Notes under the pieces: model-generated | The model's database searches: none | What the model saw: only the letters and a program-made list of their open reading frames with translations | Told to the model about the DNA's origin: nothing | In this document: positions 14,868-29,712 of the stretch, one piece after another | Layout of the letters: every line of letters starts with the position of its first letter | Numbering within the stretch: the first letter of the stretch is position 1 | Made by a program: the position numbers and the translations under genes | IMG/VR virus record: IMGVR_UViG_3300045988_062257 | Direction: 5' to 3' (one strand) | Length of the DNA stretch: 64,000 nucleotides | Origin: a virus

Positions 14868-15170
14868 ATGGGAAAAATTACTCGTCATAGCAAAGAGCGC
14901 ATTGTTCAGAGAACTGAGGGATGTGAGAGTTTCGCAGAAGCTAAGAAGTTGGCTAAACAAGCTAAGCGATCTGGCGCGACTATCAATCAGTTCCAGAAGT
15001 TCCCTAAGTTCTTCTCGTATCTTCAGAACAAAAGAGATCAGACCAATACCTGCTCTATTAGAGTGTACCGAGGTAACATTTATATCTGGCGTGGCAAAGA
15101 TACACTAATTACCGCACACCCTATCCCCGAAAGATATATTAAAGAAATGGAGGCTATTGGTGATGACTGA
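14868..15170 (+). CDS. Hypothetical basic protein
   Basis: Start 2 nt after the previous stop. Confidence 0.4.
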   Translation: MGKITRHSKERIVQRTEGCESFAEAKKLAKQAKRSGATINQFQKFPKFFSYLQNKRDQTNTCSIRVYRGNIYIWRGKDTLITAHPIPERYIKEMEAIGDD

Positions 15171-15960
15171 TGTTATGAGTAGAGTTTATGGCCATCTCGA
15201 TGAAAGTTTACAGAGATTCGACGAATCCAGAATCGTCGGTATCTTCCTGCAAGGTTCTCAGAACTATGGTCTTGAAACTCCTAAGAGTGATGTTGATACA
15301 AAGCTGATTGTTACTCCTACTTTTGATGAAGTAGTTCTCAACAAGAAACCTATCAGCACCACTCATGTAAGAGCAAATAACGAGCATACTGACTTAAAGG
15401 ATATTCGTTTAATGCTCGCCACCTTTCGCAAGCAAAACCTTAACTTCATCGAAATTCTGTTTACCCCTTATGCTTGGGTAAACCCTCTCTTTGAAAGTGA
15501 ATGGAGCCGCCTGACTACGGCGCGCGAAAAGATTGCCCATTATTCTCCATATAGCGCAGTTAAAACTATGAAGGGTATCGCTATGGAGAAGTATCATGCC
15601 ATGGAACACGAGTATCCTAGCAAGTTGGAAGTATTGGCTGAATATGGATACGACCCAAAACAGCTTCATCATCTCCTGCGAGTCCAGGAATACATCCATA
15701 GATACATCAGCGGTGAATCTTATGAAGCGTGCTTGCATCCTAAGCATCCAGAGTTTCTCGTGGCTGTTAAGCAGGGATACTTTAACCTTGAACAGGCTCG
15801 CACTTCCGCAGATGCAGCGATTGCTGATGTAATTAAAACTGCGGATGCTTTCTGCGAAAAGGTTGGTAAAACTTTTGATACCGCAGTTGATGAACTGCTG
15901 GATGACGTACAGTACAATATCGTAAAAAGTGCATTGAAAGGAGAGATTCTAAATGATTAA
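15157..15960 (+). CDS. Nucleotidyltransferase (Pol-beta superfamily)
   Basis: GS-x9-DxD-like motif LQGSQNYGLETPKSDVDTK. Confidence 0.45.
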   Translation: MVMTDVMSRVYGHLDESLQRFDESRIVGIFLQGSQNYGLETPKSDVDTKLIVTPTFDEVVLNKKPISTTHVRANNEHTDLKDIRLMLATFRKQNLNFIEILFTPYAWVNPLFESEWSRLTTAREKIAHYSPYSAVKTMKGIAMEKYHAMEHEYPSKLEVLAEYGYDPKQLHHLLRVQEYIHRYISGESYEACLHPKHPEFLVAVKQGYFNLEQARTSADAAIADVIKTADAFCEKVGKTFDTAVDELLDDVQYNIVKSALKGEILND

Positions 15961-16747
15961 GAACTGGCTTGTTACAGGAGACACTCATGGTCAAGTCCTT
16001 GAAAGACTTAGTCATATTGGATATTCTCCTGATGAAACTGCATTGATTATTCTTGGCGATATGGGGCTTAATTTCTATCTGAATAAGACCGATCGCAAGA
16101 ATAAAAAGAATGTTAATAATACAGGCTTCCGCATTTACGCGGTTCGCGGAAACCATGAAGAGCGTCCAGAAAACCTTTCCATGGAGCAAATGTATGACGA
16201 AGACGTCGATGGCGGCGTCTATTATGAGCCAGAATTTCCGAATATCAGATACCTTTTTGATGGAGAGAGCTACAACATTCATGACTACTCTGTCCTTGTT
16301 ATCGGCGGGGCATATTCCGTAGATAAGTGGTATCGACTTGGAGGCCGTCCAGAAGATACAAATAGCTGGACCGGTTGGTTCAAGGACGAACAGCTAACCA
16401 AAAAGGAAATGGATGAAATTGGCGCATGGGTTGAAGGTAAGCGTTATGATTTTGTCCTAACCCATACTTGTCCCATTTCTTGGGAGCCAAGAGATTTGTT
16501 TCTCTCTGGTCTTGACCAATCAAAAGTAGATAAGAGTATGGAACTTTGGCTTGAGGATATCAAAAGCAAAGTTGATTGGGAAGTATGGCTCTGCGGCCAC
16601 TACCATGACGATCGGTTAATCCGACCTGGCGCAGAAATGTATTTCCATGACATTGAATCTCTTGATACAATTTGGGAGCGCTGGCAAGACCCTGAGAACA
16701 TCGACTGGTGGTTGAAGAAGGATCCAAACTACTATATGGGTAGATAA
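15953..16747 (+). CDS. Calcineurin-like metallophosphoesterase
   Basis: Motifs GDTHG, GDMG, GNHE, and HYHDD-like C-terminal His. Confidence 0.55.
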   Translation: MIKNWLVTGDTHGQVLERLSHIGYSPDETALIILGDMGLNFYLNKTDRKNKKNVNNTGFRIYAVRGNHEERPENLSMEQMYDEDVDGGVYYEPEFPNIRYLFDGESYNIHDYSVLVIGGAYSVDKWYRLGGRPEDTNSWTGWFKDEQLTKKEMDEIGAWVEGKRYDFVLTHTCPISWEPRDLFLSGLDQSKVDKSMELWLEDIKSKVDWEVWLCGHYHDDRLIRPGAEMYFHDIESLDTIWERWQDPENIDWWLKKDPNYYMGR

Positions 16748-16795
16748 AAAAATAAAGGGTCGAAGTATTAAATACTTCGACCCTTTTTAATTAAA
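16748..16795. terminator. Bidirectional Rho-independent terminator (AAAGGGTCGAAGTATT-taaa-TACTTCGACCCTTT)
   Basis: Perfect palindrome flanked by A-run on one side and T-run on the other. Separates converging + and - strand genes. Confidence 0.65.
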
Positions 16796-17048
16796 AATCA
16801 TGCCATTCAATTTTCTGCGGACTTCCAGTTCCACCGATCTTTTGATAGCCATTTGCTGCGGTATATTGCAAGATGGCATCTTCTACAAAGTAGATTTTGC
16901 CTTCTTCGCCTACCGCAGGAAGCTCAGAACGCTGTGTTACTTCAATGCTTCCACCATTTTTAATCTGTTCCTTAACCCATTCTTTGAGTTTTGTATCATA
17001 ATGAGACAAAAGGTTAAGGTCAATAAGATTTTCTAATGCAACTGCCAT
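16791..17048 (-). CDS. Hypothetical protein (minus strand)
   Basis: RBS AAGGAGTG upstream on the minus strand. Converges on the bidirectional terminator. Confidence 0.45.
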   Translation of the reverse strand: MAVALENLIDLNLLSHYDTKLKEWVKEQIKNGGSIEVTQRSELPAVGEEGKIYFVEDAILQYTAANGYQKIGGTGSPQKIEWHDF

Positions 17049-17061
17049 TAGGAATCACTCC

Positions 17062-17331
17062 TTAACCAAATAATTTATCAATGTCTGCAATGTCGGCTAA
17101 GCTGCCTTCAACGACAACTGTCCCACCGCCTCCGCCGCCACTTGACTTTTGTTTAATCCATTGACCCTGGTTGTTCAATCTATAAATGCTAGAAGTTGCG
17201 ACAACCTCGCAAGTGCTGCCAGGGGTAAAGTGGGTAGGAAGGGTGGCAATTTCGTCTTCGGTATCAACTAGTAGACGAACTAGATAGGGAGTGATTTTCT
17301 CCCCACTCATCATCTGAGAATACATAGACAA
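17062..17331 (-). CDS. Hypothetical Gly-rich protein (minus strand)
   Basis: Co-oriented with 16791-17048. Contains a GGGGGG run. Confidence 0.4.
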   Translation of the reverse strand: MSMYSQMMSGEKITPYLVRLLVDTEDEIATLPTHFTPGSTCEVVATSSIYRLNNQGQWIKQKSSGGGGGGTVVVEGSLADIADIDKLFG

Positions 17332-17471: not shown

Positions 17472-17876
17472 GTGATAACCATTCGTATCTGGCACCAAAA
17501 ACTTATTCCCTATCTTGATCGTCAGCGTCTCTTGGGTCAGCATCGAGAATGCGCGGCTCTAAGAGGAAAAGGTTGGGGCAAGAAGCACGCAACTGTAGAC
17601 TACGCTTTTACACATGACCCTGCTCTACTTGTCGCTTATCATTATCTGATTATGGACGAGATGGAGAAGCGTGGTTACCATCCAGATAAGATTTGGAAGA
17701 ATCCTAACTGGCGAGGAAGTACATTAGGTGAGGGTACATGGATTTCTGATTCTAAGTATGAAGAGATTTATGAATCTGCTAAGCAGGGTAATATGATTTA
17801 CCCTGAACACGACGATGCTTATTTGCAGGAGTGTATCAATATTCTGCATGAAAAAGGTGTCGACATTACGATGTAA
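17472..17876 (+). CDS. Pyrimidine-dimer DNA glycosylase-like (T4 endonuclease V family?)
   Basis: N-terminal pattern IRIWHQKLIPYLDRQRLLGQHRECAAL resembles the endoV N-terminus (L..L.DQHL..EYRE). Non-ATG start in the ORF table. Confidence 0.35.
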   Translation: MITIRIWHQKLIPYLDRQRLLGQHRECAALRGKGWGKKHATVDYAFTHDPALLVAYHYLIMDEMEKRGYHPDKIWKNPNWRGSTLGEGTWISDSKYEEIYESAKQGNMIYPEHDDAYLQECINILHEKGVDITM

Positions 17877-18363: not shown

Positions 18364-19632
18364 ATGGCATATTTTGGTTTGGTAACTAAGTTGCAGAACT
18401 GCCGTAAGGACGAGAACTCTGATCGTCTGTATCTGGCAGATTGCTTCAATGAGGGCGTTATCGTCGGCCCCGATATGAAGACCGGTGATCTGGTTCTGTA
18501 CCTGCCGACCGATGGTCAGGTAGATCATTGGTTTGGCGATAAGTTTACCTTGTTCCGTAAGAATGAGGATGGTACTGAGCAGGGCGGTTATCTGGAGAAT
18601 AACGGTCATGTGCGGGCTATCAAGCTTCGTGGCAACGAGAGTTCTGGCATCGTCATCTCTCTTGAGCGTGTCTATGAGACTTTCGGCAATCAGCATTGGA
18701 AGAACGGAGATAAGATAAATACTATCAATGGTAAGGAGTTCTGCCGTAAGTATATCCCTAAGCGTAAGACTCCGAGCACCACTCCTAAGACTTCCTACAA
18801 GGGTCGTAAGGCAGAGGGTATTACCTATCCTGAGTTTGCAATGCATACTGACACCGAGCAGCTTGCATACAATCTGGATAAGTTCCGTCCCGGCGATGAG
18901 CTGAATATGACTCTTAAGATGCATGGCACTTCTCAGCGTTCCATGAACACCTTTGCTGAGCTACCCAATGGCTTCTTCCGTCGTCTATTCCATATGAAGA
19001 AGCGTCTGAAGCAGGCTTATGTTCTCGGTACGCGCCGTTGTGTTGTAACTGAGAACTCTCAGGGCTACTACGGCAATGATCTATTCCGTATGTCTCACCA
19101 TGAGGCATTGAAACCCCATCTTGATCCTGGTATGGAGGTCTTTTACGAGGTAGTAGGGTACTACGGTCCCTCTGAGAATGATACCATCATGCCTATCGGC
19201 GATAACTCCAAGCTAAAAGATAAGGCTTTCCAAAAGCTGTTCGGTAAAAAGTCTATCTTCTCCTACGGCTGCAAGCCCGGTGAGTCCCATATGTGGATTT
19301 ATCGCATCACTTCCGAGAATGGTCAGCGTGAGTGGACTCCTGACGAGATTACTGCTTGGTGCGAGAAGCATGGCTTTAATCGTGTCCCGGTGATTGAGAA
19401 CTTCAAGTTCACTACTGCCGAGGACCTGCAGGACCGCATTAACAAGTATTTCGAGGACTTGGTCGATCCTATCGGTAAAACTCATGTTAAAGAGGGCGTT
19501 GTAGTTCGTATCGTCAACCGCCGCGCCTTTACTGCTTTCAAGTCTAAGACTTACGAGTTCAAGGTGCTTGAGGGTATTATCAAAGAGACTGAGACTGCTC
19601 CAGATATGGAGGAGGCACAGGACGAAGTATGA
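18364..19632 (+). CDS. ATP-dependent RNA ligase, Rnl2-like
   Basis: Nucleotidyltransferase motif I KMHGTS (Rnl2 KIHGTN-like), motif IV EGVVVR, motif V FKSK. Confidence 0.5.
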   Translation: MAYFGLVTKLQNCRKDENSDRLYLADCFNEGVIVGPDMKTGDLVLYLPTDGQVDHWFGDKFTLFRKNEDGTEQGGYLENNGHVRAIKLRGNESSGIVISLERVYETFGNQHWKNGDKINTINGKEFCRKYIPKRKTPSTTPKTSYKGRKAEGITYPEFAMHTDTEQLAYNLDKFRPGDELNMTLKMHGTSQRSMNTFAELPNGFFRRLFHMKKRLKQAYVLGTRRCVVTENSQGYYGNDLFRMSHHEALKPHLDPGMEVFYEVVGYYGPSENDTIMPIGDNSKLKDKAFQKLFGKKSIFSYGCKPGESHMWIYRITSENGQREWTPDEITAWCEKHGFNRVPVIENFKFTTAEDLQDRINKYFEDLVDPIGKTHVKEGVVVRIVNRRAFTAFKSKTYEFKVLEGIIKETETAPDMEEAQDEV

Positions 19633-20251: not shown

Positions 20252-20776
20252 ATGCAGAAAATTCTAATTGTAATTGATATGCAGAATGATTTCGTAACAG
20301 GGCCTCTCGGCTCTAAAGCCGCGCAAGTAGCTGCGAAGAATATTGCTGCGCATATCAATGAATATGACACGGTAATTTTCACCCGCGATACCCATGGCCC
20401 AGATTATCTGGATACATTGGAAGGAAAGTTCCTACCGATTCCGCATTGTATCAAGGATACTGAAGGATGGGAGATTATCCCTGAACTCGTTAATGGAGTT
20501 TCCAAGGTGAAGAATCTCTACGTCGTCGATAAGGATACCTTTGGCACTTTCATTTGGGGAAGTATGTCTGTAAATATGTCAGTAGATGAAGATACTACCA
20601 TTGAAATTTGCGGCGTATGCACCGACATTTGTGTGGTATCCAATGCTCTTATCATGCGGGCTTTTCGTCCTAATCAGAAGATCAAGTGTCACAAAGACTG
20701 GTGCGCTGGTACGAGTGTTGCAGCACATGAAGCAGCTCTTAAAGTTATGGAATCTTGCCAGATTGAAGTTATTTAA
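20252..20776 (+). CDS. Isochorismatase-family hydrolase (nicotinamidase PncA-like)
   Basis: N-terminal ILIVIDMQNDF and catalytic Cys region CGVCTDICV. Confidence 0.55.
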   Translation: MQKILIVIDMQNDFVTGPLGSKAAQVAAKNIAAHINEYDTVIFTRDTHGPDYLDTLEGKFLPIPHCIKDTEGWEIIPELVNGVSKVKNLYVVDKDTFGTFIWGSMSVNMSVDEDTTIEICGVCTDICVVSNALIMRAFRPNQKIKCHKDWCAGTSVAAHEAALKVMESCQIEVI

Positions 20777-20787
20777 GGAGGCTTAAT

Positions 20788-21621
20788 ATGCTATTTGTTC
20801 GCTCTAGAATGGGTTTTGAGGATAAAACCTGGATGCCAGTTAGTCAAGATCGATTTCCAGATGGAACGCTGCACATGACTGCTCCTAAAGATTCCTTATT
20901 TAAGAACTCTAATGTCGATATCTACTGGAAGTATAACAATGATGCAGAATTGTTCTCGCTAATTTGCTTGCGGAAACACTATGCCGATTGTAAAAATGTC
21001 ACACTTTATATGCCCTATTGTCCGCACGCCCGCATGGATAGAGTTAAGGGCACAACCGATGTATTCACTCTCAAGAGTTTTGCAGATGTTATCAACTCTC
21101 TTGATTTCACCAAGGTGGTTATCTATGATGCCCATAGTAATGTAACACCTGCGCTAATTGATAGAGTGGAAAATCGTCCGAATACTATGTTCGTTGAACG
21201 CACTTTACTCGATATCGGAGACGATAATCTTGTCATGTATTATCCCGACGAAGGGGCTATGAAGAGATATTCTGAGAATTGCCAGCGCCCTTATAGCTTT
21301 GGCATGAAGCGCAGAAATTGGGAGACTGGTAAAATTCTCGGTGTAGATATTATCAATAGAGAGATTGTAAAAGACAAGAATATCCTCATTGTTGATGATA
21401 TTTGTTCTAAGGGCGGTACATTCTACCATTCAGCGCAGGCTCTGAAAGATGCGGGCGCCGCAGATATTTATCTCTTCATCACTCATTGCGAAGATTCTAT
21501 TTTCAAAGGCAGCTTACTCGAAAGTGGCTTGATTAAGCACATCTACACCACTGATTCGTTGGGCCATGACATTCTCTTTAACAAACAGATTACGGTTTAC
21601 AACCTGCGAGAAATCATTTAA
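20788..21621 (+). CDS. PRPP-synthetase-like phosphoribosyl pyrophosphokinase (Prs or ADPR-PP synthetase-like)
   Basis: PRPP-binding signature ILIVDDICSKGGT. About 277 aa. Sits next to a NAMPT-family gene. Confidence 0.5.
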   Translation: MLFVRSRMGFEDKTWMPVSQDRFPDGTLHMTAPKDSLFKNSNVDIYWKYNNDAELFSLICLRKHYADCKNVTLYMPYCPHARMDRVKGTTDVFTLKSFADVINSLDFTKVVIYDAHSNVTPALIDRVENRPNTMFVERTLLDIGDDNLVMYYPDEGAMKRYSENCQRPYSFGMKRRNWETGKILGVDIINREIVKDKNILIVDDICSKGGTFYHSAQALKDAGAADIYLFITHCEDSIFKGSLLESGLIKHIYTTDSLGHDILFNKQITVYNLREII

Positions 21622-21630
21622 GGAAAGGAA

Positions 21631-23361
21631 TTGTATACAATGTTTAATCCTCTTTTAATGATTGACTTTTATAAGAGTACCCATCATGAACAGTACCCCG
21701 TTGGACTAACTAAGATGGTTAGCTACTACACTCCTCGTATGAGCCGCCTTAAGGATGTAGACAAGGTAACTTTGTTTGGTCTACAGGCATTTATTAAGGA
21801 GTATCTCATTGAGGGTTTTAACGATAACTTCTTTAATCGTCCAGAAGAGGAAGTTGTCGCAGAGTACGAGCGAGTTCTCAACGCTACTCTCGGTCCAGGT
21901 GCATTTCAGTCTGAGAAAATTAGAGATTTGCATCGACTGGGCTATCTTCCTCTAGAAATCTCTGCTGTCCCTGAAGGCACCAGAACCGCGATCGGCGTCC
22001 CGCAGATCGAGATTACCAACACTCACCCCAACTTCGTTTGGTTGGTGAATACTATTGAGACCCTTCTGTCTGCCACCATGTGGCATACGCAGGTATCCGC
22101 GGAAGTTGGCTATCGGTATCGCCAGATTGTGCAGAAATACCGTGACATGAGTTGCGACGACAATGTTCCTGTAGCTCGACTGCTTGGTGATTTCTCTATG
22201 CGCGGTCAGCAATCCGCGGAATCCGCAATTAAGAGTTCTGCTGGCTGGTGTCTATCTTTCCTGAACACCGCTACTGTACCTGCAATTATGTGGCTTGAGA
22301 AGAACTATAATTGCGACTGCACTAAGGAACCTGTTGCTTACGGCGCAATCTCTACCGAGCATAGTGTTATGTGCTCTAACTACGCGATTGATGGTAATGA
22401 AATTACCCACATCCGCAGACTTCTGACAGAGATTTATCCTCACCACAATTTTTCTATGGTGTCTGATAGTTACGACTATTGGAATCTCGTAGAGAAAATT
22501 CTCCCGCACTTGAAAAATGAAATCATGGCACATGATGGGTGTCTTTCTATTCGTGGCGATAGTGGCGACCCAGTTGAGATTATCGCGGGTAAGGAAATCA
22601 TCTATCTCAATGAGCAGGAGTGGGAGAACCTAAAAGACGATCCAAGTGAGTTCATTGCTGAGTTCTTTGAACGAGACTTAGAGAAAGACACTCAGCAGAT
22701 TTTCTCTTACAATGGAGAGTATGCTCTTGCTGACATTACAGTCGAATGGACTAATGAGCGCGGTGCTTGGACTGATTGCAAATATTGGTACATTGAGGGT
22801 TATAATGTCAAACTGATTGAAAATTATGAGCTTACTTCTGAGGATAAGGGAACTGTCTGGTGTTTGTGGGATATTTTCGGTGGAACTATCAATAGCAAGG
22901 GCTATAAGGTCCTTGATCCTCACATTAAAGCTATCTATGGTGATAGCATTACTCCTCAGCGGTGCACTCGCATTTATCAGCGCCTTGTGAATAATGGATT
23001 TGCCATTAACAATGTTTCTCTTGGCGTTGGCTCTTTCTCCTTTATGTGTCTTGAAGAAGATGGCAGCTTCAATCCTTACACTCGTGATACCTTTGGTATC
23101 GCTGTTAAGGCAACTTACGCGGAAAATGCAAATGGTAAGCCTATTATGATTTACAAGCAGCCCAAGGCTCTCAGTTGGAAGAAGTCTCAGAAAGGCTGCT
23201 GTCGGATAGCTCTTGATGGTCAGAGCTATGAAGATGAACTGACTTGGGCAGATCATCTTGGTGAAGACAATCTACTCCAGCCTGTGTTCCGTGATGGTAG
23301 TATGATTAAGGAGGACAGTCTGCACGATATTCGCGCACGGCTATATAAGGAGGGCTTTTAA
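21631..23361 (+). CDS. Nicotinamide phosphoribosyltransferase family protein (NadV/NAMPT-like)
   Basis: 576 aa. NAMPT/NAPRT-family architecture with conserved GDS and DSYD-like motifs. Confidence 0.55.
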   Translation: MYTMFNPLLMIDFYKSTHHEQYPVGLTKMVSYYTPRMSRLKDVDKVTLFGLQAFIKEYLIEGFNDNFFNRPEEEVVAEYERVLNATLGPGAFQSEKIRDLHRLGYLPLEISAVPEGTRTAIGVPQIEITNTHPNFVWLVNTIETLLSATMWHTQVSAEVGYRYRQIVQKYRDMSCDDNVPVARLLGDFSMRGQQSAESAIKSSAGWCLSFLNTATVPAIMWLEKNYNCDCTKEPVAYGAISTEHSVMCSNYAIDGNEITHIRRLLTEIYPHHNFSMVSDSYDYWNLVEKILPHLKNEIMAHDGCLSIRGDSGDPVEIIAGKEIIYLNEQEWENLKDDPSEFIAEFFERDLEKDTQQIFSYNGEYALADITVEWTNERGAWTDCKYWYIEGYNVKLIENYELTSEDKGTVWCLWDIFGGTINSKGYKVLDPHIKAIYGDSITPQRCTRIYQRLVNNGFAINNVSLGVGSFSFMCLEEDGSFNPYTRDTFGIAVKATYAENANGKPIMIYKQPKALSWKKSQKGCCRIALDGQSYEDELTWADHLGEDNLLQPVFRDGSMIKEDSLHDIRARLYKEGF

Positions 23362-23786
23362 TGAACGATCCATTCCTTGACATCAATAGAGTAGTTGATA
23401 GACTCTATAATGAATATAAGCGGTATGGTGATATTATTATCGCCTTCGACTTTGATTACACGGTTCATAATTTCCGTGACGAAGATTATACTTACGAGTG
23501 TGTGAGTGAAATGTTGCGGAAATGGCAACCCTATGCTAAGCTCGTGGTATTTAGTGCTTCTCAAGAAGAGCGATATCCCTATATTGCAGATTATCTCAAT
23601 CAGAATAACATTCCTTTTGATGCAATCAATGAGGATGTTCTGACTGAAAAACGTAAGCCAACGAGAAAACTGTATTATAATATCTTGCTTGATGATAGAG
23701 CAGGACTTGGTAGCGCTTACACGGCATTAGATATGCTATATAGTAAACTAGAAGCAGAAGGAGAACTGAAAACATGGAGAATGTAA
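23361..23786 (+). CDS. HAD-like hydrolase (possible nucleotidase)
   Basis: DxDxT motif FDFDYTV near the N-terminus. Confidence 0.35.
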   Translation: MNDPFLDINRVVDRLYNEYKRYGDIIIAFDFDYTVHNFRDEDYTYECVSEMLRKWQPYAKLVVFSASQEERYPYIADYLNQNNIPFDAINEDVLTEKRKPTRKLYYNILLDDRAGLGSAYTALDMLYSKLEAEGELKTWRM

Positions 23787-24514
23787 TTACCAATATCACC
23801 AATTGGATTAAGGATTACTTCGTAAATAATGGTCCAGATTGCAAAGCTATCATTGGTATTTCTGGTGGCAAAGATAGCACTGTAACTGCGGCTCTGCTTG
23901 TTAAAGCACTCGGAAAGAATAGGGTTATTGGTGTAAAAATGCCACAGGGCAATCAGCATGACATTAATGTTGCCAATAAAGTAATTGACTATCTCGGTAT
24001 ACGGAGTTACGAAATCAATATTGGCGATGTCTGTGAATCCTTATATCATGCTATTGATGAGGGGTATGATTTTGATAGTACAGTTAAAAACAATCCCCAA
24101 GTTACTTCTAACTCTCCTGCCCGCGTCCGCATGACAGTGCTTTATGCTATTGCTGCGCTTGAACATGGTAGAGTAGCAAACACTTGTAATAGGAGCGAGG
24201 ATTTTATTGGCTATTCCACTAAATTCGGAGACGCTGCTGGCGATTTCTCCGTGCTGTCTGAATATACAGTTTCAGAAGTGCGGCAGATTGGTAAAGCACT
24301 TGGTATCCCTAATGAGTTTATCTTTAAAGCGCCAGAAGACGGTCTTAGTGGCAAGACAGATGAAGATAATCTTGGATTTACCTATGGTGAACTCGATCAC
24401 TTCCTACTGCGAGGACATTATCCATCTTATGATGTTTATAAAAACATTGAAGAGCGGCACAAGCGCAATCTTCATAAGATAAATCCAATGCCTTCTTGTC
24501 CTAGATATTACTAA
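23774..24514 (+). CDS. nadE: NH3-dependent NAD+ synthetase
   Basis: PP-loop GISGGKDST plus NadE-like length and motif arrangement. Confidence 0.6.
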   Translation: MENVITNITNWIKDYFVNNGPDCKAIIGISGGKDSTVTAALLVKALGKNRVIGVKMPQGNQHDINVANKVIDYLGIRSYEINIGDVCESLYHAIDEGYDFDSTVKNNPQVTSNSPARVRMTVLYAIAALEHGRVANTCNRSEDFIGYSTKFGDAAGDFSVLSEYTVSEVRQIGKALGIPNEFIFKAPEDGLSGKTDEDNLGFTYGELDHFLLRGHYPSYDVYKNIEERHKRNLHKINPMPSCPRYY

Positions 24515-25006: not shown

Positions 25007-25750
25007 ATGGCTACATATGCGTGCTCTGATTTGCACGGTAGATTGGATCTACTGAAGCAGATTCAGGATTTCTTACAACCCGATGATACGGTTTATTTTC
25101 TCGGCGATGCCGGAGATAGAGGTCCAAATCCTTGGGAGACTATCAAGGCAGTTGCTCAAGATAAGCGTTTTATCTATCTTAAAGGCAACCATGAAGATAT
25201 GCTGGTAAAAGCCATGGAAGATGAAGTGCGGAGAGAAGGATGCGGAGTACTTGGGAAAAACTTTGCTTTACTTTCTCAAAATGGGGGTGGAGAAACTTTC
25301 CTTGACTGGCTTTTAGAACCAATGAAAACTGGCTGGTGGAATTATCTCAAGAAACTACCAATCTATAAGAAATATGTAAATGAACAGGGAATCACTATTC
25401 ATCTCTGTCATGCTGGCTTTAATCCAATGCAGGATGATGCTATCCCTAATGACGACGATTTACTTTGGGATAGATGCCATTGGCACTCTAAGGAGCCTAT
25501 TTTTGGTGATAAAGAAATTTGCGTGCACGGCCATACTCCTATTCCATATCTGTTAAAACGAAATAACTGGAGCGATGAAATTCCAGATTGGGATGGTGGA
25601 GCTTGGTGGTATGCACAAGACCACAAAGTTGATTTGGATTGTGCAAGTTGGTATACTGGTTATACTGTATTGTTAGACTTAGACAGCTTTGATGAACATA
25701 TCTTTAATGCTGCCGACGCAATTGACCTTTCTAAGAAGGAGGAATGGTGA
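25007..25750 (+). CDS. Calcineurin-like metallophosphoesterase (Ser/Thr phosphatase-like)
   Basis: Motifs SDLHGR, GDAGDRG, GNHE. Confidence 0.55.
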   Translation: MATYACSDLHGRLDLLKQIQDFLQPDDTVYFLGDAGDRGPNPWETIKAVAQDKRFIYLKGNHEDMLVKAMEDEVRREGCGVLGKNFALLSQNGGGETFLDWLLEPMKTGWWNYLKKLPIYKKYVNEQGITIHLCHAGFNPMQDDAIPNDDDLLWDRCHWHSKEPIFGDKEICVHGHTPIPYLLKRNNWSDEIPDWDGGAWWYAQDHKVDLDCASWYTGYTVLLDLDSFDEHIFNAADAIDLSKKEEW

Positions 25751-26475
25751 TGATTCCCGGACTGTATAAAGTCTTTAACGAAAGATGGAATGGACAGACA
25801 ACTTGGGTATATTCAGATCCTCATTTTGGTGATAAAGAACTCGCCGCTGGAACTCCAGATCGTCCTTCCGATGAAGAGCAGGTTAAACTTATCAATAGCA
25901 AAGTTGGTAAGAAAGATGTTCTGATTATCTTGGGAGACTGCGGCGACCCGGCTATGTGCGCTAAACTTCGTGGTTATAAGGTACTTATTATGGGGAACCA
26001 TGACGCCGGCCGCAGTAATTATGAGCGCAAAAAGATTTCTCGCAAGTTCCCCAAAGAAGTCTTTCAAAAATCTGAGGCTCTTGATGAAATGAAACGCGTC
26101 TACCCCGGTTGTCAGTATTCTATTACCGAGGGGTATGACTTCCATTCCCCTTTTGAGTATTGGGAAGTCTTTGCGGACAATAATCTATTTGACGAGATCT
26201 ATGAGGGACCTCTCATGATTGGGGAAAAACTCATTCTCTCCCATGAGCCTCTTCCTATGATGCCTTGGGTGTTTAATATTCATGGTCATGTCCATGATCG
26301 TCGTCACAAAAATGATGACAGACATCTAAATGTTTGCTCTGACGCAATTAACTACAGCCCAGTCAATCTAAATAAGTTGATGAAGAATGGGCTTACCTCA
26401 AAAATCTACTCTGTACATCGACAGACTATTGATGTAGCTACGAAAAAGAAGGAAAAGAGGAAACGCAATGGATAA
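25744..26475 (+). CDS. Calcineurin-like metallophosphoesterase (second, adjacent)
   Basis: Motifs SDPHFGD, GDCGD, GNHD, HGHVH. Confidence 0.5.
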   Translation: MVMIPGLYKVFNERWNGQTTWVYSDPHFGDKELAAGTPDRPSDEEQVKLINSKVGKKDVLIILGDCGDPAMCAKLRGYKVLIMGNHDAGRSNYERKKISRKFPKEVFQKSEALDEMKRVYPGCQYSITEGYDFHSPFEYWEVFADNNLFDEIYEGPLMIGEKLILSHEPLPMMPWVFNIHGHVHDRRHKNDDRHLNVCSDAINYSPVNLNKLMKNGLTSKIYSVHRQTIDVATKKKEKRKRNG

Positions 26476-27031: not shown

Positions 27032-27037
27032 AAGAAG

Positions 27038-27073: not shown

Positions 27074-27111
27074 TATTTTATTATATAATATATGTATAAG
27101 AAAGGAGAAGA

Positions 27112-27948
27112 TTGAAAATGCCTATTCATGATGAACTTGGAACTCGGATGAAAGAGTTCTATGAAAGCGTTCCTAAGACTAAGTTAATGCGCCGTACCCC
27201 AGTTGCAATTCGCATTGACGGTAAAGCTTTCCACACCTTTACCCGTGGTTTCAGTAAGCCTTTTGACGATGTGCTGATTAGTGCGATGCAGGATACCATG
27301 AAATATCTCTGTGAAAACATTCAAGGGTGCGTATTAGGGTATACCCAAAGTGATGAAATCACTCTTATCCTTGTTGATTACAAGCGGCTCAACAGCTCTG
27401 CTTGGTTTGATTATGAAGTGCAGAAGATGTGTTCTATTGCCGCTTCTATGGCGACGATGGCTTTCAACAAAGCATTTAATGAAGGAGTTCGGCATAGGAA
27501 TCTAGATTATTATGCCGCTCATGCGACTATGGATAACCCTTACCCACAAGATGATTTGGGCCAGACTTATGCAGTAAAAGCACAAATGGGCGCCATGTTT
27601 GATGCTCGTTGTTTCAATATCCCCAAGGAAGAGGTCACCAACCTTGTCTATTGGCGTCAGCTAGATGCAACCCGCAATTCTATTCAGATGGTAGGTCAGG
27701 CTAATTTCTCTCACAAAGAACTCCAAGGTAAATCTTGTGAGAAAATCAAAGAGATGTTAATCACGGAGAAAGGGATTTCTTGGGAAGACTTTCATCCTAT
27801 GTATAAGCATGGCTCTTGTTGCATCAAGGTTACAACTGAGACCGATGGTGTAACTCGCTCTAGCTGGGAAATTGATAAAAATATTCCGCTATTTGTCGGA
27901 GAGGGACGTGAGTATATCGAATCTCTAATCCAATGTCAGGAGGAATAA
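27112..27948 (+). CDS. Thg1-like protein (tRNA-His guanylyltransferase family, 3'-5' polymerase)
   Basis: N-terminal RIDGKAFHTFTRG signature. About 278 aa. Confidence 0.5.
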   Translation: MKMPIHDELGTRMKEFYESVPKTKLMRRTPVAIRIDGKAFHTFTRGFSKPFDDVLISAMQDTMKYLCENIQGCVLGYTQSDEITLILVDYKRLNSSAWFDYEVQKMCSIAASMATMAFNKAFNEGVRHRNLDYYAAHATMDNPYPQDDLGQTYAVKAQMGAMFDARCFNIPKEEVTNLVYWRQLDATRNSIQMVGQANFSHKELQGKSCEKIKEMLITEKGISWEDFHPMYKHGSCCIKVTTETDGVTRSSWEIDKNIPLFVGEGREYIESLIQCQEE

Positions 27949-28430
27949 CAATGGCTGAATGGCAAAAAGGAACAGGATGGAAAGAATGGTTTGAAATTAC
28001 CGGCGCGGATGGAGTAGATTTCCACCCAATTGGTCAAGATCCGCGTAAAAACCCAGCCATTGTGTTGCAGTCTAATACCAAGGAAGATATTCTAGAAAGA
28101 AAAGTCGGCTATCCAAAGAGTAATTATTCATTTTGGAAAAAAATCAATGGCAAAAAATATTATATCTCTCTTGACAATCCAATTGAGGTAACTCATAAAG
28201 TTACTATAGATGCAGAAGTAGATTGGGTTACTGGTTATTTACGAGGCGGATATTACCATGGAGAACTTGAACTATCTGAGGAAGATTATAAAACTTTTAA
28301 GAAAGATCCATTAAATTTTTTAGAAAATCATATTGATTTATGGGTAGATTGGCCATTTGAAATAAACGATTGCGAGATTGAGGACATTGGTGAACTTTCA
28401 CAAGTCTATTTTACTGATCAAACTAATTAA
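27933..28430 (+). CDS. Hypothetical protein
   Basis: Overlaps upstream gene end. Confidence 0.4.
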   Translation: MSGGITMAEWQKGTGWKEWFEITGADGVDFHPIGQDPRKNPAIVLQSNTKEDILERKVGYPKSNYSFWKKINGKKYYISLDNPIEVTHKVTIDAEVDWVTGYLRGGYYHGELELSEEDYKTFKKDPLNFLENHIDLWVDWPFEINDCEIEDIGELSQVYFTDQTN

Positions 28431-28435
28431 ATAAA

Positions 28436-28477
28436 AATCAAAAGGTTCTAATTCTTAGAACCTTTTGATTTTTTTAT
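28436..28477 (+). terminator. Rho-independent terminator (AATCAAAAGGTTCTAA-ttc-TTAGAACCTTTTGATT plus T7)
   Basis: 16-bp stem and T-run. Confidence 0.65.
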
Positions 28478-28527
28478 AAATATATATTATAATATATATA
28501 GAAAGTTAAGAAAGGAAGTTATGAAGT
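28478..28527 (+). promoter_or_regulatory. Promoter motif plus leader (ATATATATTATAATATATATAGAAAGTTAAGAAAGGAAG), consensus-like copy
   Basis: Best match to the motif repeated about 17 times in the window. Confidence 0.45.
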
Positions 28528-28683
28528 ATGGTCACTAAAAATGACGCTGTTAAAGCGTTGGAAACCCTTGATGGTATTATTGATAGTCTGGATTGGAGCG
28601 GCGTATTCATTGATGACGAGCTAAATGACATTGAAAAATCAATGGCTATCATTCAGCAGTTTATTGAACAGGAGGAAAAGTAA
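28528..28683 (+). CDS. Hypothetical small acidic protein (51 aa)
   Basis: Follows the promoter/RBS motif. Below the ORF-table cutoff. Confidence 0.25.
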   Translation: MVTKNDAVKALETLDGIIDSLDWSGVFIDDELNDIEKSMAIIQQFIEQEEK

Positions 28684-28961
28684 TGACTCATTCGCATGGT
28701 ATGTTAGGTTATCACGATAGTCCAAGATGCAAGTCCGACCTTTGGTCTCCTGTCCCATGTTCTTGTGCTCAAGAGAATCGAGCTTTTTCTCCTTTTATAG
28801 AGCATCAGCAGGACCTTGAAGATGCTGTTAATTTGCTCATTGAAGCAAGAGTAAAAGGTGAGAACTGCTCTATTCAGTTTGAAACCGAGGTATCTGATGA
28901 AGATATTGCTTGGGTGATGGCTGAAGTTGAACGGAGGTTAGCTAATGCCAGAATACCTTGA
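28683..28961 (+). CDS. Hypothetical protein
   Basis: Start coupled to the previous stop. Confidence 0.4.
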   Translation: MTHSHGMLGYHDSPRCKSDLWSPVPCSCAQENRAFSPFIEHQQDLEDAVNLLIEARVKGENCSIQFETEVSDEDIAWVMAEVERRLANARIP

Positions 28962-29712
28962 CCGTGCTGTGGCTGTATCGCAAGCCAATTTCATACATGG
29001 TCATTGGGACGATGTGTACGTGAGTGCTGCTGCACTGATGGCAATACCAGCTGCAGATGTTATTCCAGTAACTCACAGTAAGTGGGATATTGAAGTTGGC
29101 ATGAATTATCATACGGAACGAATTTGTCCGGTATGTAAGAAAGTAATCAAGAGTAACTTCTGGGAGTATTGTTCACATTGTGGGGCAAAAATGGATGGAG
29201 GCGAAAAAATGACGACTGAACTGAAAGTAATGGTTGGCATCCCCGGTAGTGGTAAATCTACTTGGGTTAAGCAAGAGGTAGCTCGAATCGAGGAAGAACA
29301 TCGTACCACTTGTGTAGTTTCCAGAGATTTCGCGCGGCAGTCCATTTTGACCGATCGTGATAGCTACTTTGACAAAGAAGTTGAAGTATTCGACGAATTT
29401 GTCCGGCAGATTAACGAAGCTATGGAACTTGGTATTGATGTTGTGTTTGCGGATGCGACTCATATTAGCCCCGCTTCTCGTGCAAAGCTCCTTGGTCGGT
29501 TGATCGCAGATCCGCATACCAAATTGACCTTTGAAGTCATTGATGTCCCTGTTGAAACCGCTCTTGAGCGTAATGCTCAGCGGACTGGCGTTGCCAGAAT
29601 CCCCGATTCCGCAATTAAGAAGATGAAGAAGGGATTTTCTATTCCTACTGAAAAAGAGTTTCCTAAAACCAATTGGGGATTTTCTAATATCGAGGTGCGT
29701 GTGCATCATTAA
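28945..29712 (+). CDS. Polynucleotide-kinase-like P-loop kinase with N-terminal zinc ribbon
   Basis: CPVCKK...CSHCG zinc ribbon, then Walker A GIPGSGKST and PNK-kinase-like downstream region. Confidence 0.45.
   Translation: MPEYLDRAVAVSQANFIHGHWDDVYVSAAALMAIPAADVIPVTHSKWDIEVGMNYHTERICPVCKKVIKSNFWEYCSHCGAKMDGGEKMTTELKVMVGIPGSGKSTWVKQEVARIEEEHRTTCVVSRDFARQSILTDRDSYFDKEVEVFDEFVRQINEAMELGIDVVFADATHISPASRAKLLGRLIADPHTKLTFEVIDVPVETALERNAQRTGVARIPDSAIKKMKKGFSIPTEKEFPKTNWGFSNIEVRVHH

What the first reader, a model, noticed from the sequence alone, without database searches (positions are those of the whole stretch)
15157..29712. Dispersed RNA repair and processing toolkit
Within about 15 kb: a Pol-beta-type nucleotidyltransferase (15157), an Rnl2-like RNA ligase (18364, motif KMHGTS), a Thg1-like reverse polymerase (27112, RIDGKAFHTFTRG) and a PNK-like P-loop kinase (28945). 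The Ro60 gene, a DHH phosphoesterase and a tRNA cluster lie nearby. Together these can heal and seal broken tRNAs (kinase plus ligase), rebuild the 5' end (Thg1-like) or 3' end (nucleotidyltransferase), and perform RNA quality control (Ro60). That is a counter-measure set against host anticodon nucleases and tRNA-targeting toxins.
Basis: partly seen in the sequence, partly recalled or inferred. Interest (0 to 1): 0.6.

Follow-up and report, generated by a model that had tools for sequence, protein, structure and literature searches.

The report
Phage tRNA repair gene set
An uncultured ~148-kb human-gut phage carries a conserved set of RNA end-repair enzymes, plus a Ro60-like protein with tRNA-mimicking small RNAs; this is a new example of an already described phage counter-defence kit, not a new kind of system.

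Summary

Corrections:
- The ligase has the Rnl5 (Naegleria/Deinococcus) layout, not the Rnl2 layout.
- The "Ro60" is a DUF2828/DUF7788 protein with a Ro60 fold.
- The DHH protein is RecJ-like, lies in the replication module, and is not part of the kit.

- A cREC cyclic-phosphate domain.
- Four metallophosphoesterases, one overlapping the RlaP gene.
- A MoxR ATPase.
- At least two covariation-supported YrlA-like RNAs (permuted tRNA mimics), one ending 51 nt upstream of the Ro60-like gene.

The gene set recurs, in shuffled order, across a clade of 100-200 kb metagenomic phages. The heal-and-seal function against host tRNA nucleases is inferred, not shown. It matches systems catalogued by Burroughs and Aravind (2016) and Iyer et al. 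(2021).

The Thg1-like enzyme may instead add G-1 to the phage's own tRNA-His, which has U at position -1. TLP-less phages T5 and CHI14 share that feature, so it is not diagnostic.

Verdict: real, well supported, a new member of a known kind.

The parts
486..9585 (+). tRNA cluster: 11 credible tRNAs, each with a 7-bp acceptor stem and an encoded CCA. It continues upstream of the window in the same genome (about 33 tRNAs plus a tmRNA).
   Evidence: ARAGORN and Rfam. Contig L091, 99.99% identical to the window, shows 22 more tRNAs and a tmRNA.
334..449 (+). Tentative third Y-like RNA. A closing stem AAGACGCUU / AAGGCGUCUU plus GCCGCAA encloses the element that ARAGORN calls 'tRNA-Cys(aca)'.
   Evidence: Covariance model R1, 29.5 bits, E 5e-4. 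Single-sequence fold and motif scan. Rfam tRNA matches only model positions 4-67.
3125..3244 (+). Y-like RNA copy A, a YrlA-type permuted tRNA mimic. In order: 9-bp closing stem, hairpin, T-arm, acceptor 3' strand plus GCCA, loop, acceptor 5' strand, D-arm.
   Evidence: Rfam YrlA, full length but below threshold (29 bits against 69). The fold of the single sequence equals the consensus, z = -4.6. On 26 homologues: 95.4% of cells paired against 71.7% in shuffles, and 25 of 30 pairs changed on both sides.
9584..9729 (+). Y-like RNA copy B. It starts right after tRNA-Cys and ends 51 nt upstream of the Ro60-like start codon. It also contains an anticodon-arm-like hairpin and ACCA.
   Evidence: R1, 40.2 bits, E 7e-7. 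Hits at the same position in L008-L011, L013, L017 and L018. Fold z = -2.9.
9780..11270 (+). Ro60-like protein: a helical TROVE-like ring plus a vWA domain with a MIDAS motif. Sequence family DUF2828/DUF7788.
   Evidence: Pfam. PHROG 850 'RNA-binding protein', E 3.5e-129. AlphaFold model pLDDT 77; the top 11 PDB fold hits are all Ro60 (2NVO E 8.5e-7; phage phiLo Ro60 9L5Y). DxSxS is invariant.
11391..12278 (+). DUF7192 protein, function unknown. Found only in the window's closest relatives.
   Evidence: Pfam E 5.9e-34. Present in 9 of 62 loci.
12214..13239 (+). MoxR-type AAA+ ATPase (true start uncertain). A candidate remodeller acting through the vWA/MIDAS domain of the Ro60-like protein; this role is inferred.
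   Evidence: Pfam AAA_5 E 2.8e-11. Present in 8 of 62 loci.
14147..14458 (+). cREC (cyclic-phosphate-processing receiver) domain protein. A candidate 2',3'-cyclic phosphate opener.
   Evidence: Pfam PF20274 E 1.9e-18. The proposed role comes from PMC7824862. Present in 26 of 62 loci.
15157..15960 (+). RlaP-family Pol-beta nucleotidyltransferase (probable ATG at 15163).
   Evidence: Present in 41 of 62 loci.
15953..16747 (+). Metallophosphoesterase 1. It overlaps the end of the RlaP gene by 8 nt. A candidate 3'-phosphate or cyclic-phosphate esterase.
   Evidence: Pfam Metallophos E 3.3e-8. GDTHG / GD / GNHE motifs. Adjacent to RlaP in 31 of 32 loci. No informative PDB relative.
18364..19632 (+). 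ATP-dependent RNA ligase with the Rnl5 layout: an N-terminal OB-like domain followed by a C-terminal nucleotidyltransferase domain.
   Evidence: PHROG 968 'RNA ligase', E 3.4e-53. A separate DNA ligase lies at 41728-42876.
20252..24514 (+). NAD+ salvage block interleaved with the kit: nicotinamidase-like isochorismatase, PRPP synthetase, NAMPT/NAPRT, a 141-aa protein and NAD synthase. This is context, not RNA repair itself.
   Evidence: Pfam. The same ligase-NAD salvage adjacency occurs in Alishewanella and Mycobacterium phages.
25007..26475 (+). Two further metallophosphoesterases (25007-25750 and 25744-26475), directly upstream of the Thg1-like region.
   Evidence: Pfam Metallophos E 1.2e-10 and 5.5e-5.
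27112..27948 (+). Bacterial-type Thg1-like protein, a 3'-5' polymerase (probable ATG at 27118). It has a ~36-aa insert at residues 125-160 relative to BtTLP.
   Evidence: Called as a 276-aa gene on contig L087.
28945..29712 (+). PNK-type P-loop kinase with an N-terminal CxxC...CxxC zinc-ribbon extension and no phosphatase domain.
   Evidence: PHROG 505 'polynucleotide kinase', E 5.6e-20. An identical 255-aa gene call exists on a 148-kb public contig.
30513..31073 (+). Metallophosphoesterase 4. In relative L002 its counterpart overlaps the kinase gene by 4 nt. In the window a NUMOD homing-endonuclease ORF (30144-30506) lies between them.
   Evidence: Pfam. L002 gene table. The best PDB relative is Aquifex aq_1665, not the CthPnkp phosphatase.
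31256..32752 (+). SPFH/Band-7 (flotillin-like) protein. A possible scaffold; its membership in the kit is not tested.
   Evidence: Pfam Band_7 E 5.8e-19.
33548..34921 (+). PIN-PhoH protein (a predicted RNase domain plus an ATPase). It marks the conserved end of the island; its role is not tested.
   Evidence: Pfam PhoH E 4.2e-26, PIN_4 E 3.8e-7. Present at the same place in L002 and L087.

Best explanation
Window positions of about 300-35000 form the translation-maintenance and counter-defence island of an uncultured ~148-kb human-gut phage. The host is probably an anaerobic Firmicute with an S-layer.

The island provides spare tRNAs and a heal-and-seal RNA repair pathway. The proposed steps, all inferred from family membership, are:
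1. A host ribotoxin cuts a tRNA and leaves a 2',3'-cyclic phosphate and a 5'-OH.
2. The cREC protein and one or more metallophosphoesterases open and remove the 3' phosphate.
3. The PNK-type kinase phosphorylates the 5'-OH.
4. If a nucleotide was excised, RlaP adds one or two back to the 3'-OH.
5. The Rnl5-type ligase seals the break.
6. The Thg1-like enzyme refills 5'-truncated acceptor stems, using the 3' strand as template, and/or adds G-1 to the phage tRNA-His.

A Ro60-like ring protein, with at least two YrlA-type tRNA-mimic RNAs, provides RNA quality control or scaffolding. Those RNAs are probably released from the tRNA-cluster transcript. The protein may be remodelled by the neighbouring MoxR ATPase.

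What is shown here: the family and fold assignments, intact catalytic motifs, conserved linkage across the clade, and the structure and covariation of the small RNAs.

What is inferred: every enzymatic step, the substrates, and the link to host nucleases.
For: - Family assignments with intact motifs.
- Ligase fold is NgrRnl-like. The Ro60-like protein has a Ro60 fold.
- Published descriptions of the same component set in phages: PMC7824862. RlaP biochemistry: PMC12776372.
- Synteny in an 85%-identical relative and on near-identical 148-kb contigs.
- 36 of 62 related loci carry at least 3 of 6 core repair genes near the Ro60-like gene, in shuffled order. RlaP and the phosphoesterase are adjacent in 31 of 32.
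- A separate DNA ligase exists, so the PF09414 ligase is not the replicative enzyme.
- Y-like RNA: strong covariation; 39 of 54 loci with enough upstream sequence have at least one strong copy; also present beside the DUF2828 gene of cultured Bacillus phage PK-3.
- The credible tRNAs in the window (numbers 2-12) need neither CCA addition nor 5' editing.
Against: - There are no functional data and the host is unknown.
- The genes are spread over 20 kb and interleaved with NAD+ salvage genes and a DenV-type glycosylase.
- Kinase and TLP homologues lie within 10 kb of the Ro60-like gene in only 5 and 13 of 62 loci, though in the window itself they lie 17-19 kb away, so this count is limited by locus length.
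- The loci come from one clade, so part of the synteny reflects shared ancestry.
- The ligase's solved relative is described as a nick-sealing enzyme, and whether this type seals anticodon-loop breaks is untested.
- None of the phosphoesterases resembles the CthPnkp phosphatase at sequence level.
- The RlaP HMM score is marginal.
- The TLP has an alternative substrate in tRNA-His.
Confidence: 0.6

Rival explanations
1. The set serves maturation and upkeep of the phage's own large tRNA and small-RNA repertoire, not damage repair. In particular, the Thg1-like enzyme adds G-1 opposite C73 to the phage tRNA-His, whose gene has U at position -1. The other enzymes would process the tRNA/Y-RNA polycistron.
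For: The tRNA-His lies 1.85 kb upstream of the window edge on a contig that is 99.99% identical to the window. It reads ...GCCA-u-GUGGCUG...CAGUCAC-C-CCA. Five distinct clade tRNA-His genes have U at -1 with G1 and C73, against one clear G-1. Bacterial and archaeal TLPs add templated nucleotides at tRNA 5' ends (abstracts of PMC3061083 and PMC4820378). Y-like RNAs abut tRNAs.
Against: The credible tRNAs inspected (window numbers 2-12) have perfect 7-bp acceptor stems and an encoded CCA, so no 5' editing or CCA addition is needed. T5 and Serratia phage CHI14 also have U at -1, although Escherichia and Serratia phages are not among the ten genera itemised in the TLP search, whose remaining 19 organism names were not listed. 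A tRNA-His without G-1 is therefore not specific to TLP-encoding phages. A kinase, a ligase and RlaP have no role in ordinary bacterial tRNA maturation.
Confidence: 0.15
2. The genes are an unconnected collection of early or auxiliary genes. The ligase seals RNA-terminated nicks in DNA during replication or repair, the kinase acts on DNA ends or on nucleosides, and the metallophosphoesterases are protein or nucleotide phosphatases. Their proximity is incidental.
For: The genes are spread over 20 kb with unrelated genes between them (DenV, NAD salvage, a homing endonuclease). Gene order varies between lineages, and 13 of 62 loci show none of the six genes near the Ro60-like gene. The metallophosphoesterases have no informative relatives.
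Against: The same combination recurs in shuffled order. RlaP-phosphoesterase and kinase-phosphoesterase are overlapping gene pairs. PNK, ligase and NAPRT also sit together in the distant mycobacteriophage DirkDirk. A dedicated DNA ligase is present elsewhere in the window. The combination matches a published RNA-repair syntax.
Confidence: 0.13
3. The core of the island counters NAD+- and nucleotide-signal-based defence rather than RNA damage. cREC, the phosphoesterases and the kinase would degrade cyclic or ADP-ribose-derived immune signals and feed the NAD+ salvage block, and the ligase and TLP would be secondary passengers.
For: A complete-looking NAD+ salvage block lies in the middle of the kit. 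Iyer et al. link cREC to NAD+/ADPr-processing systems as well as to RNA ligases. Ligase homologues sit beside PRPP synthetase and NAPRT in unrelated phages.
Against: The kinase's nearest relatives are polynucleotide kinases, not nucleoside kinases. RlaP, TLP, the RNA ligase and Ro60 with its Y RNAs all act on RNA. The two functions are not mutually exclusive.
Confidence: 0.1

Closest known systems
Phage RNA-repair systems catalogued by comparative genomics (Burroughs and Aravind 2016, NAR 44:8525; Iyer et al. 2021, Viruses 13:63, PMC7824862)
   Same: The component list is the same: phage tRNAs, an ATP-dependent RNA ligase, RlaP, polynucleotide kinase, phosphoesterases, cREC, sporadic Thg1 and a Rot/TROVE protein with a tRNA-like RNA, next to NAD+ salvage genes.
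   Different: This genome is about 148 kb, below the jumbo range surveyed, and belongs to an uncultured gut-phage lineage. The phosphatases are calcineurin-type rather than HAD or 2H. The ligase has an Rnl5-like layout, whereas Iyer et al. say most phage ligases are Rnl1 or Rnl2. The TROVE-fold protein belongs to DUF2828/DUF7788. The 2016 paper itself could not be read here.
T4 Pnkp + Rnl1 repair of PrrC-cleaved tRNA-Lys
   Same: A phage-encoded 5' kinase plus RNA ligase with heal-and-seal logic. The kinase shares the P-loop and the RD..R motif with T4 Pnk.
   Different: There is no fused HAD 3'-phosphatase, and the ligase is not Rnl1. Extra RlaP, cREC, TLP and Ro60/Y RNA components are present. 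No cognate host nuclease is known.
Clostridium thermocellum Pnkp (kinase - metallophosphoesterase - ligase)
   Same: The kinase's best solved relative is the CthPnkp kinase domain (4GP6, E 8e-6). In relative L002 the kinase gene overlaps a metallophosphoesterase gene.
   Different: The activities sit on separate polypeptides. The phosphoesterase is not detectably related to the Pnkp phosphatase beyond the superfamily. No Hen1 methyltransferase was seen. The ligase belongs to a different family.
Naegleria gruberi / Deinococcus radiodurans RNA ligase (Rnl5)
   Same: N-terminal OB-like domain followed by a C-terminal nucleotidyltransferase domain. There is a full-length fold match (E 3.5e-14) and a profile match through the N-domain. 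Motifs I, III, IV and V are conserved.
   Different: 422 aa against 340 aa, with insertions. About 15% identity. TM-score is only 0.36-0.45 because the domain orientation differs. Sequence-level E-value is only 0.05.
Bacterial Rsr (Ro60)-YrlA systems and Thermus phage phiLo Ro60-Yrl (PMC4201824, PMC12135203)
   Same: A Ro60-fold ring plus vWA protein, with tRNA-mimicking Y RNAs encoded upstream on the same strand.
   Different: The protein is in the DUF2828/DUF7788 sequence family and was not detected by Pfam TROVE. The RNAs score far below Rfam's YrlA threshold and lie inside a tRNA cluster. Next to the protein gene is a MoxR ATPase, or an MVP-like protein in sister lineages.
Bacillus thuringiensis Thg1-like protein (BtTLP, PDB 4KGK)
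   Same: E 7.5e-61 over nearly the full length, with the catalytic RIDG and SDE motifs.
   Different: It has a ~36-residue insertion between the two conserved halves, and it is phage-encoded.

Membership tests
Thg1 / Thg1-like protein (PF04446) | HMM match above the curated threshold | tested here: met
   103.5 bits against 29.2, E 1e-29.
Thg1 / Thg1-like protein (PF04446) | Catalytic carboxylates (Asp of the RIDG motif; the Asp-Glu pair of the SDE motif), aligned to a solved TLP | tested here: met
   RIDGKAF and YTQSDEIT align with BtTLP 4KGK.
Thg1 / Thg1-like protein (PF04446) | 3'-5' nucleotide addition activity on tRNA | not testable with these tools
   Needs an enzyme assay.
Rnl2-type RNA ligase (T4 Rnl2 / REL1) | N-terminal nucleotidyltransferase domain followed by a C-terminal helical domain | tested here: not met
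   The NTase domain is at residues 183-391, behind a ~180-aa beta-rich N-domain. Rnl2 and REL1 align over only ~290 columns, E 1e-6 to 1e-7.
Rnl5-type RNA ligase (NgrRnl / DraRnl) | N-terminal OB-like domain plus C-terminal NTase domain | tested here: met
   Foldseek: 13 NgrRnl entries at the top, ~420 aligned columns, E 3.5e-14 to 3e-12. The profile hit to NgrRnl comes through the N-domain.
Rnl5-type RNA ligase (NgrRnl / DraRnl) | Significant sequence-level relationship to a characterised Rnl5 | tested here: inconclusive
   Profile E 0.054 only. 15% identity, TM-score 0.36-0.45.
Covalent nucleotidyltransferase (ligase) superfamily | Motif I lysine (KxxG) and motifs III, IV and V conserved | tested here: met
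   K185, H187, G188, E262, E377, G378, K393 and K395 are invariant in 26 sequences down to 30% identity.
RlaP (PF10127) | HMM match above the curated threshold | tested here: met
   Marginal: 23.6 bits against 23. 18 of 21 clade homologues have RlaP as top family, best E 5.5e-6.
RlaP (PF10127) | Pol-beta GS...DxD catalytic motif | tested here: met
   G31, S32, D43 and D45 are invariant in the clade alignment.
RlaP (PF10127) | Gene-neighbourhood association with an RNA ligase | tested here: met
   The ligase starts 2.4 kb downstream on the same strand. Both genes are found in many related loci.
RlaP (PF10127) | Addition of 1-2 NMP to RNA 3'-OH | not testable with these tools
   Shown only for Pseudomonas RlaP (PMC12776372).
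Polynucleotide 5'-kinase (T4 Pnk / CthPnkp kinase clade) | P-loop plus the Asp/Arg motif (RDxxR), aligned to solved PNKs | tested here: met
   GIPGSGKST and SRDFAR. Matches to 4GP6 (E 8e-6) and 1LY1 (E 1.3e-5) over residues 92-230. PHROG 505.
Polynucleotide 5'-kinase (T4 Pnk / CthPnkp kinase clade) | Fused 3'-phosphatase domain (bifunctional Pnkp) | tested here: not met
   A 255-aa protein with a Zn-ribbon N-terminus and a kinase domain only.
Ro60 / TROVE | Match to the Pfam TROVE model | tested here: not met
   Only DUF2828, DUF7788 and a weak VWA_2 hit at E<=0.01. No PDB sequence or profile hit to Ro60.
Ro60 / TROVE | Helical ring plus vWA fold with a MIDAS motif | tested here: met
   The top 11 fold hits are all Ro60, E 8.5e-7 to 8e-4, over 514-584 aligned columns. 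D296, S298 and S300 are invariant.
Ro60 / TROVE | A cognate Y RNA encoded nearby | tested here: met
   Copy B ends 51 nt upstream and copy A lies 6.5 kb upstream. Binding is not testable here.
YrlA (Rfam RF02553) | Score at or above the gathering threshold | tested here: not met
   29 bits against 69.
YrlA (Rfam RF02553) | A closing stem enclosing a tRNA-like module (T-arm, acceptor-like stem, D-arm), supported by covariation | tested here: met
cREC (PF20274) | HMM match above the curated threshold | tested here: met
   67.3 bits against 27, E 1.9e-18.
CthPnkp / lambda-type RNA 3'-phosphatase (calcineurin-like) | A specific relationship of the phosphoesterases to the Pnkp phosphatase domain | tested here: not met
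   Only generic PF00149 matches. PDB: no relative for 15953-16747, and Aquifex aq_1665 for 30513-31073.

The most novel reading that the evidence does not exclude
The DUF2828-type Ro60-like protein and its permuted-tRNA Y RNAs, released from the tRNA-cluster transcript, may form a single RNP platform together with a neighbouring remodeller or shell. That neighbour is the MoxR ATPase in this lineage and a major-vault-protein-like protein in 26 of the 80 Ro-anchored sister loci. The platform would either recruit the adjacent end-healing, RlaP, ligase and Thg1-like enzymes to broken tRNAs, or act as a tRNA decoy for host nucleases. It would be a phage counterpart of a Ro or vault RNP dedicated to tRNA protection. 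DUF2828 proteins occur in at least 704 phage records, so this would be a widespread module that is largely unannotated in phage records.
Probability: 0.15. Interest if true: 0.8.

Novelty: new member of a known kind. Interest (0 to 1): 0.45.

Why it matters
This adds an abundant, uncultured human-gut phage lineage to the set of phages that carry a multi-enzyme RNA repair kit: the ligase cluster alone holds 1,393 member sequences. It also pins down which enzyme subtypes are used. That implies tRNA-targeting defences are a significant pressure in the gut.

The more useful by-product is a testable link. The very common phage DUF2828 protein has a Ro60 fold and is accompanied by covariation-supported tRNA-mimic RNAs, including in cultured Bacillus phages. 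Experiments on Ro60/Y-RNA function in phage infection, and on RlaP, cREC and Rnl5-type ligase substrates, are therefore feasible.

Tried and rejected
- Megablast of 15 kb against 50,697 phage records found nothing. The phage has no close cultured relative.
- Iterating nhmmer with the Y-like RNA drifted into ordinary tRNAs. I discarded that result and used a covariance model instead.
- I rejected the idea that the TLP and the nucleotidyltransferase edit or complete the phage tRNAs in general. The credible tRNAs inspected have perfect acceptor stems and an encoded CCA.
- I tested whether a tRNA-His lacking G-1 is specific to TLP-encoding phages. TLP-less T5 and CHI14 also lack it, so the idea is kept only as a rival.
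- PDB profile and sequence searches were uninformative for RlaP, phosphoesterase 1 and the Ro60-like protein.
- The 'split CthPnkp' idea for the kinase plus phosphoesterase 4 holds only as an analogy.
- The MVP-like protein of relatives shows no significant similarity to the window's Band-7 protein.
- Burroughs and Aravind 2016 could not be retrieved.
- The DHH protein was examined and excluded from the kit.

Full report
**Context**

The window is one-stranded: essentially all credible genes are on the + strand. GC content is about 40%. It has a tRNA cluster at its left end and a replication module on the right, with gyrase, a DNA ligase, DnaB, a RecJ-like protein, a RecD-like helicase, Pol III alpha and NrdD.

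No cultured phage is close at the nucleotide level. Public human-gut metagenome contigs of about 148 kb carry identical proteins in the same order. One of them, L091, is 99.99% identical to the window over 12.2 kb. The window is therefore part of an abundant uncultured phage of about 148 kb.

An SLH-domain amidase, an anaerobic ribonucleotide reductase, and best protein matches to large Bacillus and Fusobacterium phages suggest an anaerobic Firmicute host. That is inference.

**Check of the observation**

Each of the four named ORFs exists and passes Pfam's curated threshold.

- 15157-15960 is an RlaP-family Pol-beta nucleotidyltransferase. The score is marginal (23.6 bits against 23). It is backed by PHROG 388 at E 6.7e-22, by 18 of 21 clade homologues hitting RlaP first, and by an invariant GS...DxD motif.
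- 18364-19632 is a PF09414 RNA ligase (E 5e-10). The quoted KMHGTS contains the motif I lysine. Motifs I, III, IV and V are invariant across 26 homologues down to 30% identity.
- 27112-27948 is a Thg1-family protein (E 1e-29). Its closest solved relative is the Bacillus thuringiensis Thg1-like protein (E 7.5e-61). The RIDG and SDE catalytic motifs are intact, and there is a ~36-residue insertion.
- 28945-29712 is an AAA_33 kinase. Its nearest solved relatives are the C. thermocellum Pnkp kinase domain and T4 polynucleotide kinase. It has a P-loop, an RDxxR motif and an N-terminal CxxC...CxxC extension. The same 255-aa gene is called in public data.

The ligase is not built like Rnl2. Its catalytic domain is C-terminal, behind a beta-rich N-domain of about 180 aa.
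- A profile of the family finds only the Naegleria gruberi ligase in the PDB, through the N-domain (E 0.05).
- The AlphaFold model (pLDDT 77) matches that enzyme over about 420 columns at E 3.5e-14. Rnl2 and REL1 match only the catalytic domain, at E 1e-6 to 1e-7.
- It therefore has the Rnl5 layout, with insertions. A separate ATP-dependent DNA ligase lies at 41728-42876.

The 'Ro60' gene is 9780-11270. By sequence it is DUF2828/DUF7788, with no TROVE hit at E<=0.01 and no sequence-level PDB relative.
- Its model's top 11 fold matches are all Ro60 orthologues over the full length, including Deinococcus Rsr and the Ro60 of Thermus phage phiLo.
- The vWA MIDAS motif is invariant.

The DHH protein at 52473-53690 has DHHA1 plus RecJ_OB domains and lies inside the replication module. 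I exclude it from the kit.

Between the Ro60-like gene and RlaP lie a DUF7192 protein, a MoxR-type AAA+ ATPase and a cREC ('cyclic-phosphate processing receiver') protein (E 1.9e-18).

Four calcineurin-type metallophosphoesterases are present.
- One overlaps the end of the RlaP gene by 8 nt. It is adjacent to RlaP in 31 of the 32 related loci that have both.
- Another follows the kinase. In relative L002 those two genes overlap by 4 nt. In the window a NUMOD homing-endonuclease ORF sits between them.

These proteins are the candidates for 3'-end healing, which the stand-alone kinase cannot supply. None of them is specifically related to the CthPnkp phosphatase.

A Band-7/SPFH protein and a PIN-PhoH protein close the island. 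An NAD+ salvage block (20252-24514) and a DenV-type glycosylase are interleaved.

**Small RNAs**

A permissive Rfam scan gave a full-length but sub-threshold YrlA (bacterial Y RNA) match at 3128-3241 (29 bits against 69). The sequence is a circularly permuted tRNA mimic inside a 9-bp closing stem. In order, it has a T-arm, the acceptor 3' strand followed by GCCA, a loop, the acceptor 5' strand and a D-arm.

I fetched 80 related loci through the Ro60-like protein.
- The element recurs on the gene strand.
- RNAalifold on 11 copies predicted five helices, with 17 of 30 pairs compensatory.
- A covariance model found strong copies that never overlap any of 679 ARAGORN tRNAs.
- On 26 strong copies, 95.4% of cells are paired against 71.7% in shuffles and 28-48% with slid partners. 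25 of 30 pairs change on both sides. That alignment was fitted to the model, which favours the structure. However, the independent MAFFT alignment and the single-sequence fold (z = -4.6) agree with it.

A second copy at 9584-9729 ends 51 nt upstream of the Ro60-like start codon. It holds that position in seven relatives.

The odd 'tRNA-Cys(aca)' at 363-432 sits inside the same closing-stem motif and is probably a third copy. A fourth candidate, at about 609-755, is tentative.

The motif AAGAC...(A/G)C(A/C)GCAA occurs four times on the + strand and never on the other strand in 64 kb.

Of 54 loci with enough upstream sequence, 39 have at least one strong copy. Cultured Bacillus phage PK-3 has two copies in the tRNA gaps just upstream of its DUF2828 gene.

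Phage Ro60 with Y-like RNAs is already known (PMC4201824, PMC12135203). This extends a known pairing to the DUF2828 sequence family.

**Linkage**

A relative whose ligase is 85% identical keeps the same order from the Ro60-like gene to PIN-PhoH.

Among 62 loci with at least 9 kb downstream of the Ro60-like gene, these fractions have a homologue within reach:
- RlaP: 41
- Phosphoesterase 1: 34
- Ligase: 31
- cREC: 26
- TLP: 13
- Kinase: 5

36 of the 62 have at least three of the six, and the order is shuffled.

The kinase and TLP counts are limited by locus length, because in the window these genes lie 17-19 kb from the Ro60-like gene. The loci also belong to one clade, so part of this is shared ancestry. 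The retention of content despite rearrangement argues for functional linkage, as does the similar PNK-ligase-NAPRT neighbourhood in a mycobacteriophage.

**Mechanism**

The best-supported reading is the published one for such gene sets (PMC7824862). It combines spare tRNAs with a heal-and-seal pathway against host tRNA nucleases.
1. cREC and a phosphoesterase clear the 2',3'-cyclic or 3' phosphate.
2. The kinase phosphorylates the 5'-OH.
3. RlaP restores an excised nucleotide. This activity has been shown for Pseudomonas RlaP (PMC12776372).
4. The ligase seals the break.
5. The TLP refills 5'-truncated acceptor stems.
6. Ro60 and its Y RNAs act in quality control or scaffolding.

All enzymatic steps are inferred from family membership.

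**Rival for the TLP**

The phage tRNA-His, 1.85 kb beyond the window's left edge in the same genome, has G1, C73 and an encoded CCA but U at position -1. Four further distinct clade tRNA-His genes show the same pattern. A templated G-1 addition would be a natural TLP reaction.

However, T5 and the T4-like phage CHI14 also have U at -1, and their genera are not among the ten itemised in the TLP search, whose remaining 19 organism names were not listed. The feature is therefore not diagnostic.

The other tRNAs need no 5' editing or CCA addition. That argues against a general maturation role for the whole set.

**Comparison and novelty**

The system works like the T4 Pnkp/Rnl1 and C. thermocellum Pnkp pathways. 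Its composition matches the phage RNA-repair systems described by Burroughs and Aravind (2016) and Iyer et al. (2021). The differences are:
- an Rnl5-type ligase;
- calcineurin-type phosphoesterases rather than HAD or 2H enzymes;
- a stand-alone kinase with a zinc ribbon;
- a DUF2828-type Ro60-like protein with a MoxR neighbour;
- a genome below jumbo size.

I rate it a new member of a known kind. It is of moderate interest, mainly because the Ro60-like/Y-RNA link is testable in cultured Bacillus phages.

**Limits**

- The host and its defences are unknown.
- Burroughs and Aravind 2016 could not be read. I cannot say whether DUF2828 was already unified with TROVE there.
- E-values from the home-built covariance model are rough.
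- The AlphaFold models have only moderate confidence (pLDDT 77).

Noticed in passing
L002 3161-5596, and 25 other Ro-anchored loci (for example L033 12787-15213, L040 11720-14176, L045 11933-14365): An 811-aa major-vault-protein-like gene (Pfam MVP_shoulder) lies directly downstream of the Ro60-like gene in 26 of the 80 Ro-anchored loci. The window's lineage has DUF7192 plus MoxR at that position instead. Phage MVPs have been reported (bioRxiv 10.1101/2023.11.10.566534), but that paper does not mention TROVE, Ro60 or tRNA. A TROVE-fold protein, a vault-shell-like protein and small tRNA-like RNAs together parallel the eukaryotic vault.
   Followed up: partly
window 4166-4239: A tRNA with an 8-nt anticodon loop (gUUAAAAg; ARAGORN anticodon 'taaa'), 3 nt after a tRNA-Met. 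It scores 36 bits with Rfam tRNA. It could be a +1 frameshift or ochre-suppressor-like tRNA.
   Followed up: no
L091 6262-6338 (same genome, 1.85 kb upstream of window position 1): The phage tRNA-His has a 7-bp stem, C73 and an encoded CCA, but U at position -1. It begins 1 nt after the CCA of tRNA-Arg. T5 and Serratia phage CHI14 tRNA-His genes also have U at -1.
   Followed up: partly
L091 1-8185 (same genome, upstream of the window): 22 more tRNAs, a tmRNA (tag DNNYFDSHMAA) and a tRNA with anticodon CUA (called 'Pyl', amber-suppressor-like). 43 such CUA tRNAs occur across the related loci, which hints at TAG reassignment in parts of this clade.
   Followed up: no
window 3075-3125: An orphan element resembling a tRNA 3' half (T-arm-like CGAGUUCGAGUCUCG, then GCCCGCACCA) lies immediately 5' of Y-like RNA copy A. 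No matching 5' acceptor strand is present, and its fold is not distinctive (z = -1.4).
   Followed up: partly
window 3333-3735: Read by eye, this stretch looks like an HNH endonuclease gene interrupted by a stop codon, lying between Y-like RNA A and tRNA-Gln.
   Followed up: no
window 20252-24514: A complete-looking NAD+ salvage block (nicotinamidase-like, PRPP synthetase, NAMPT/NAPRT, NAD synthase) is embedded in the repair island. Ligase homologues in Alishewanella phage Slicko01 and Mycobacterium phage DirkDirk also sit beside PRPP synthetase or NAPRT genes.
   Followed up: partly
window 17472-17876: A DenV-type pyrimidine-dimer DNA glycosylase (Pfam Pyr_excise, E 7.6e-23) lies between the RlaP pair and the ligase.
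   Followed up: no
window 4247-5383: An AAA / nSTAND3-like ATPase is encoded inside the tRNA cluster. It is conserved in 25 of 62 related loci.
   Followed up: no
L093 16959-17094 and 18422-18551 (Bacillus phage PK-3): Y-like RNAs (43-44 bits with model R1) fill the gaps between tRNAs just upstream of the DUF2828 gene of a cultured phage. In that record neither the tRNAs nor these RNAs are annotated.
   Followed up: partly
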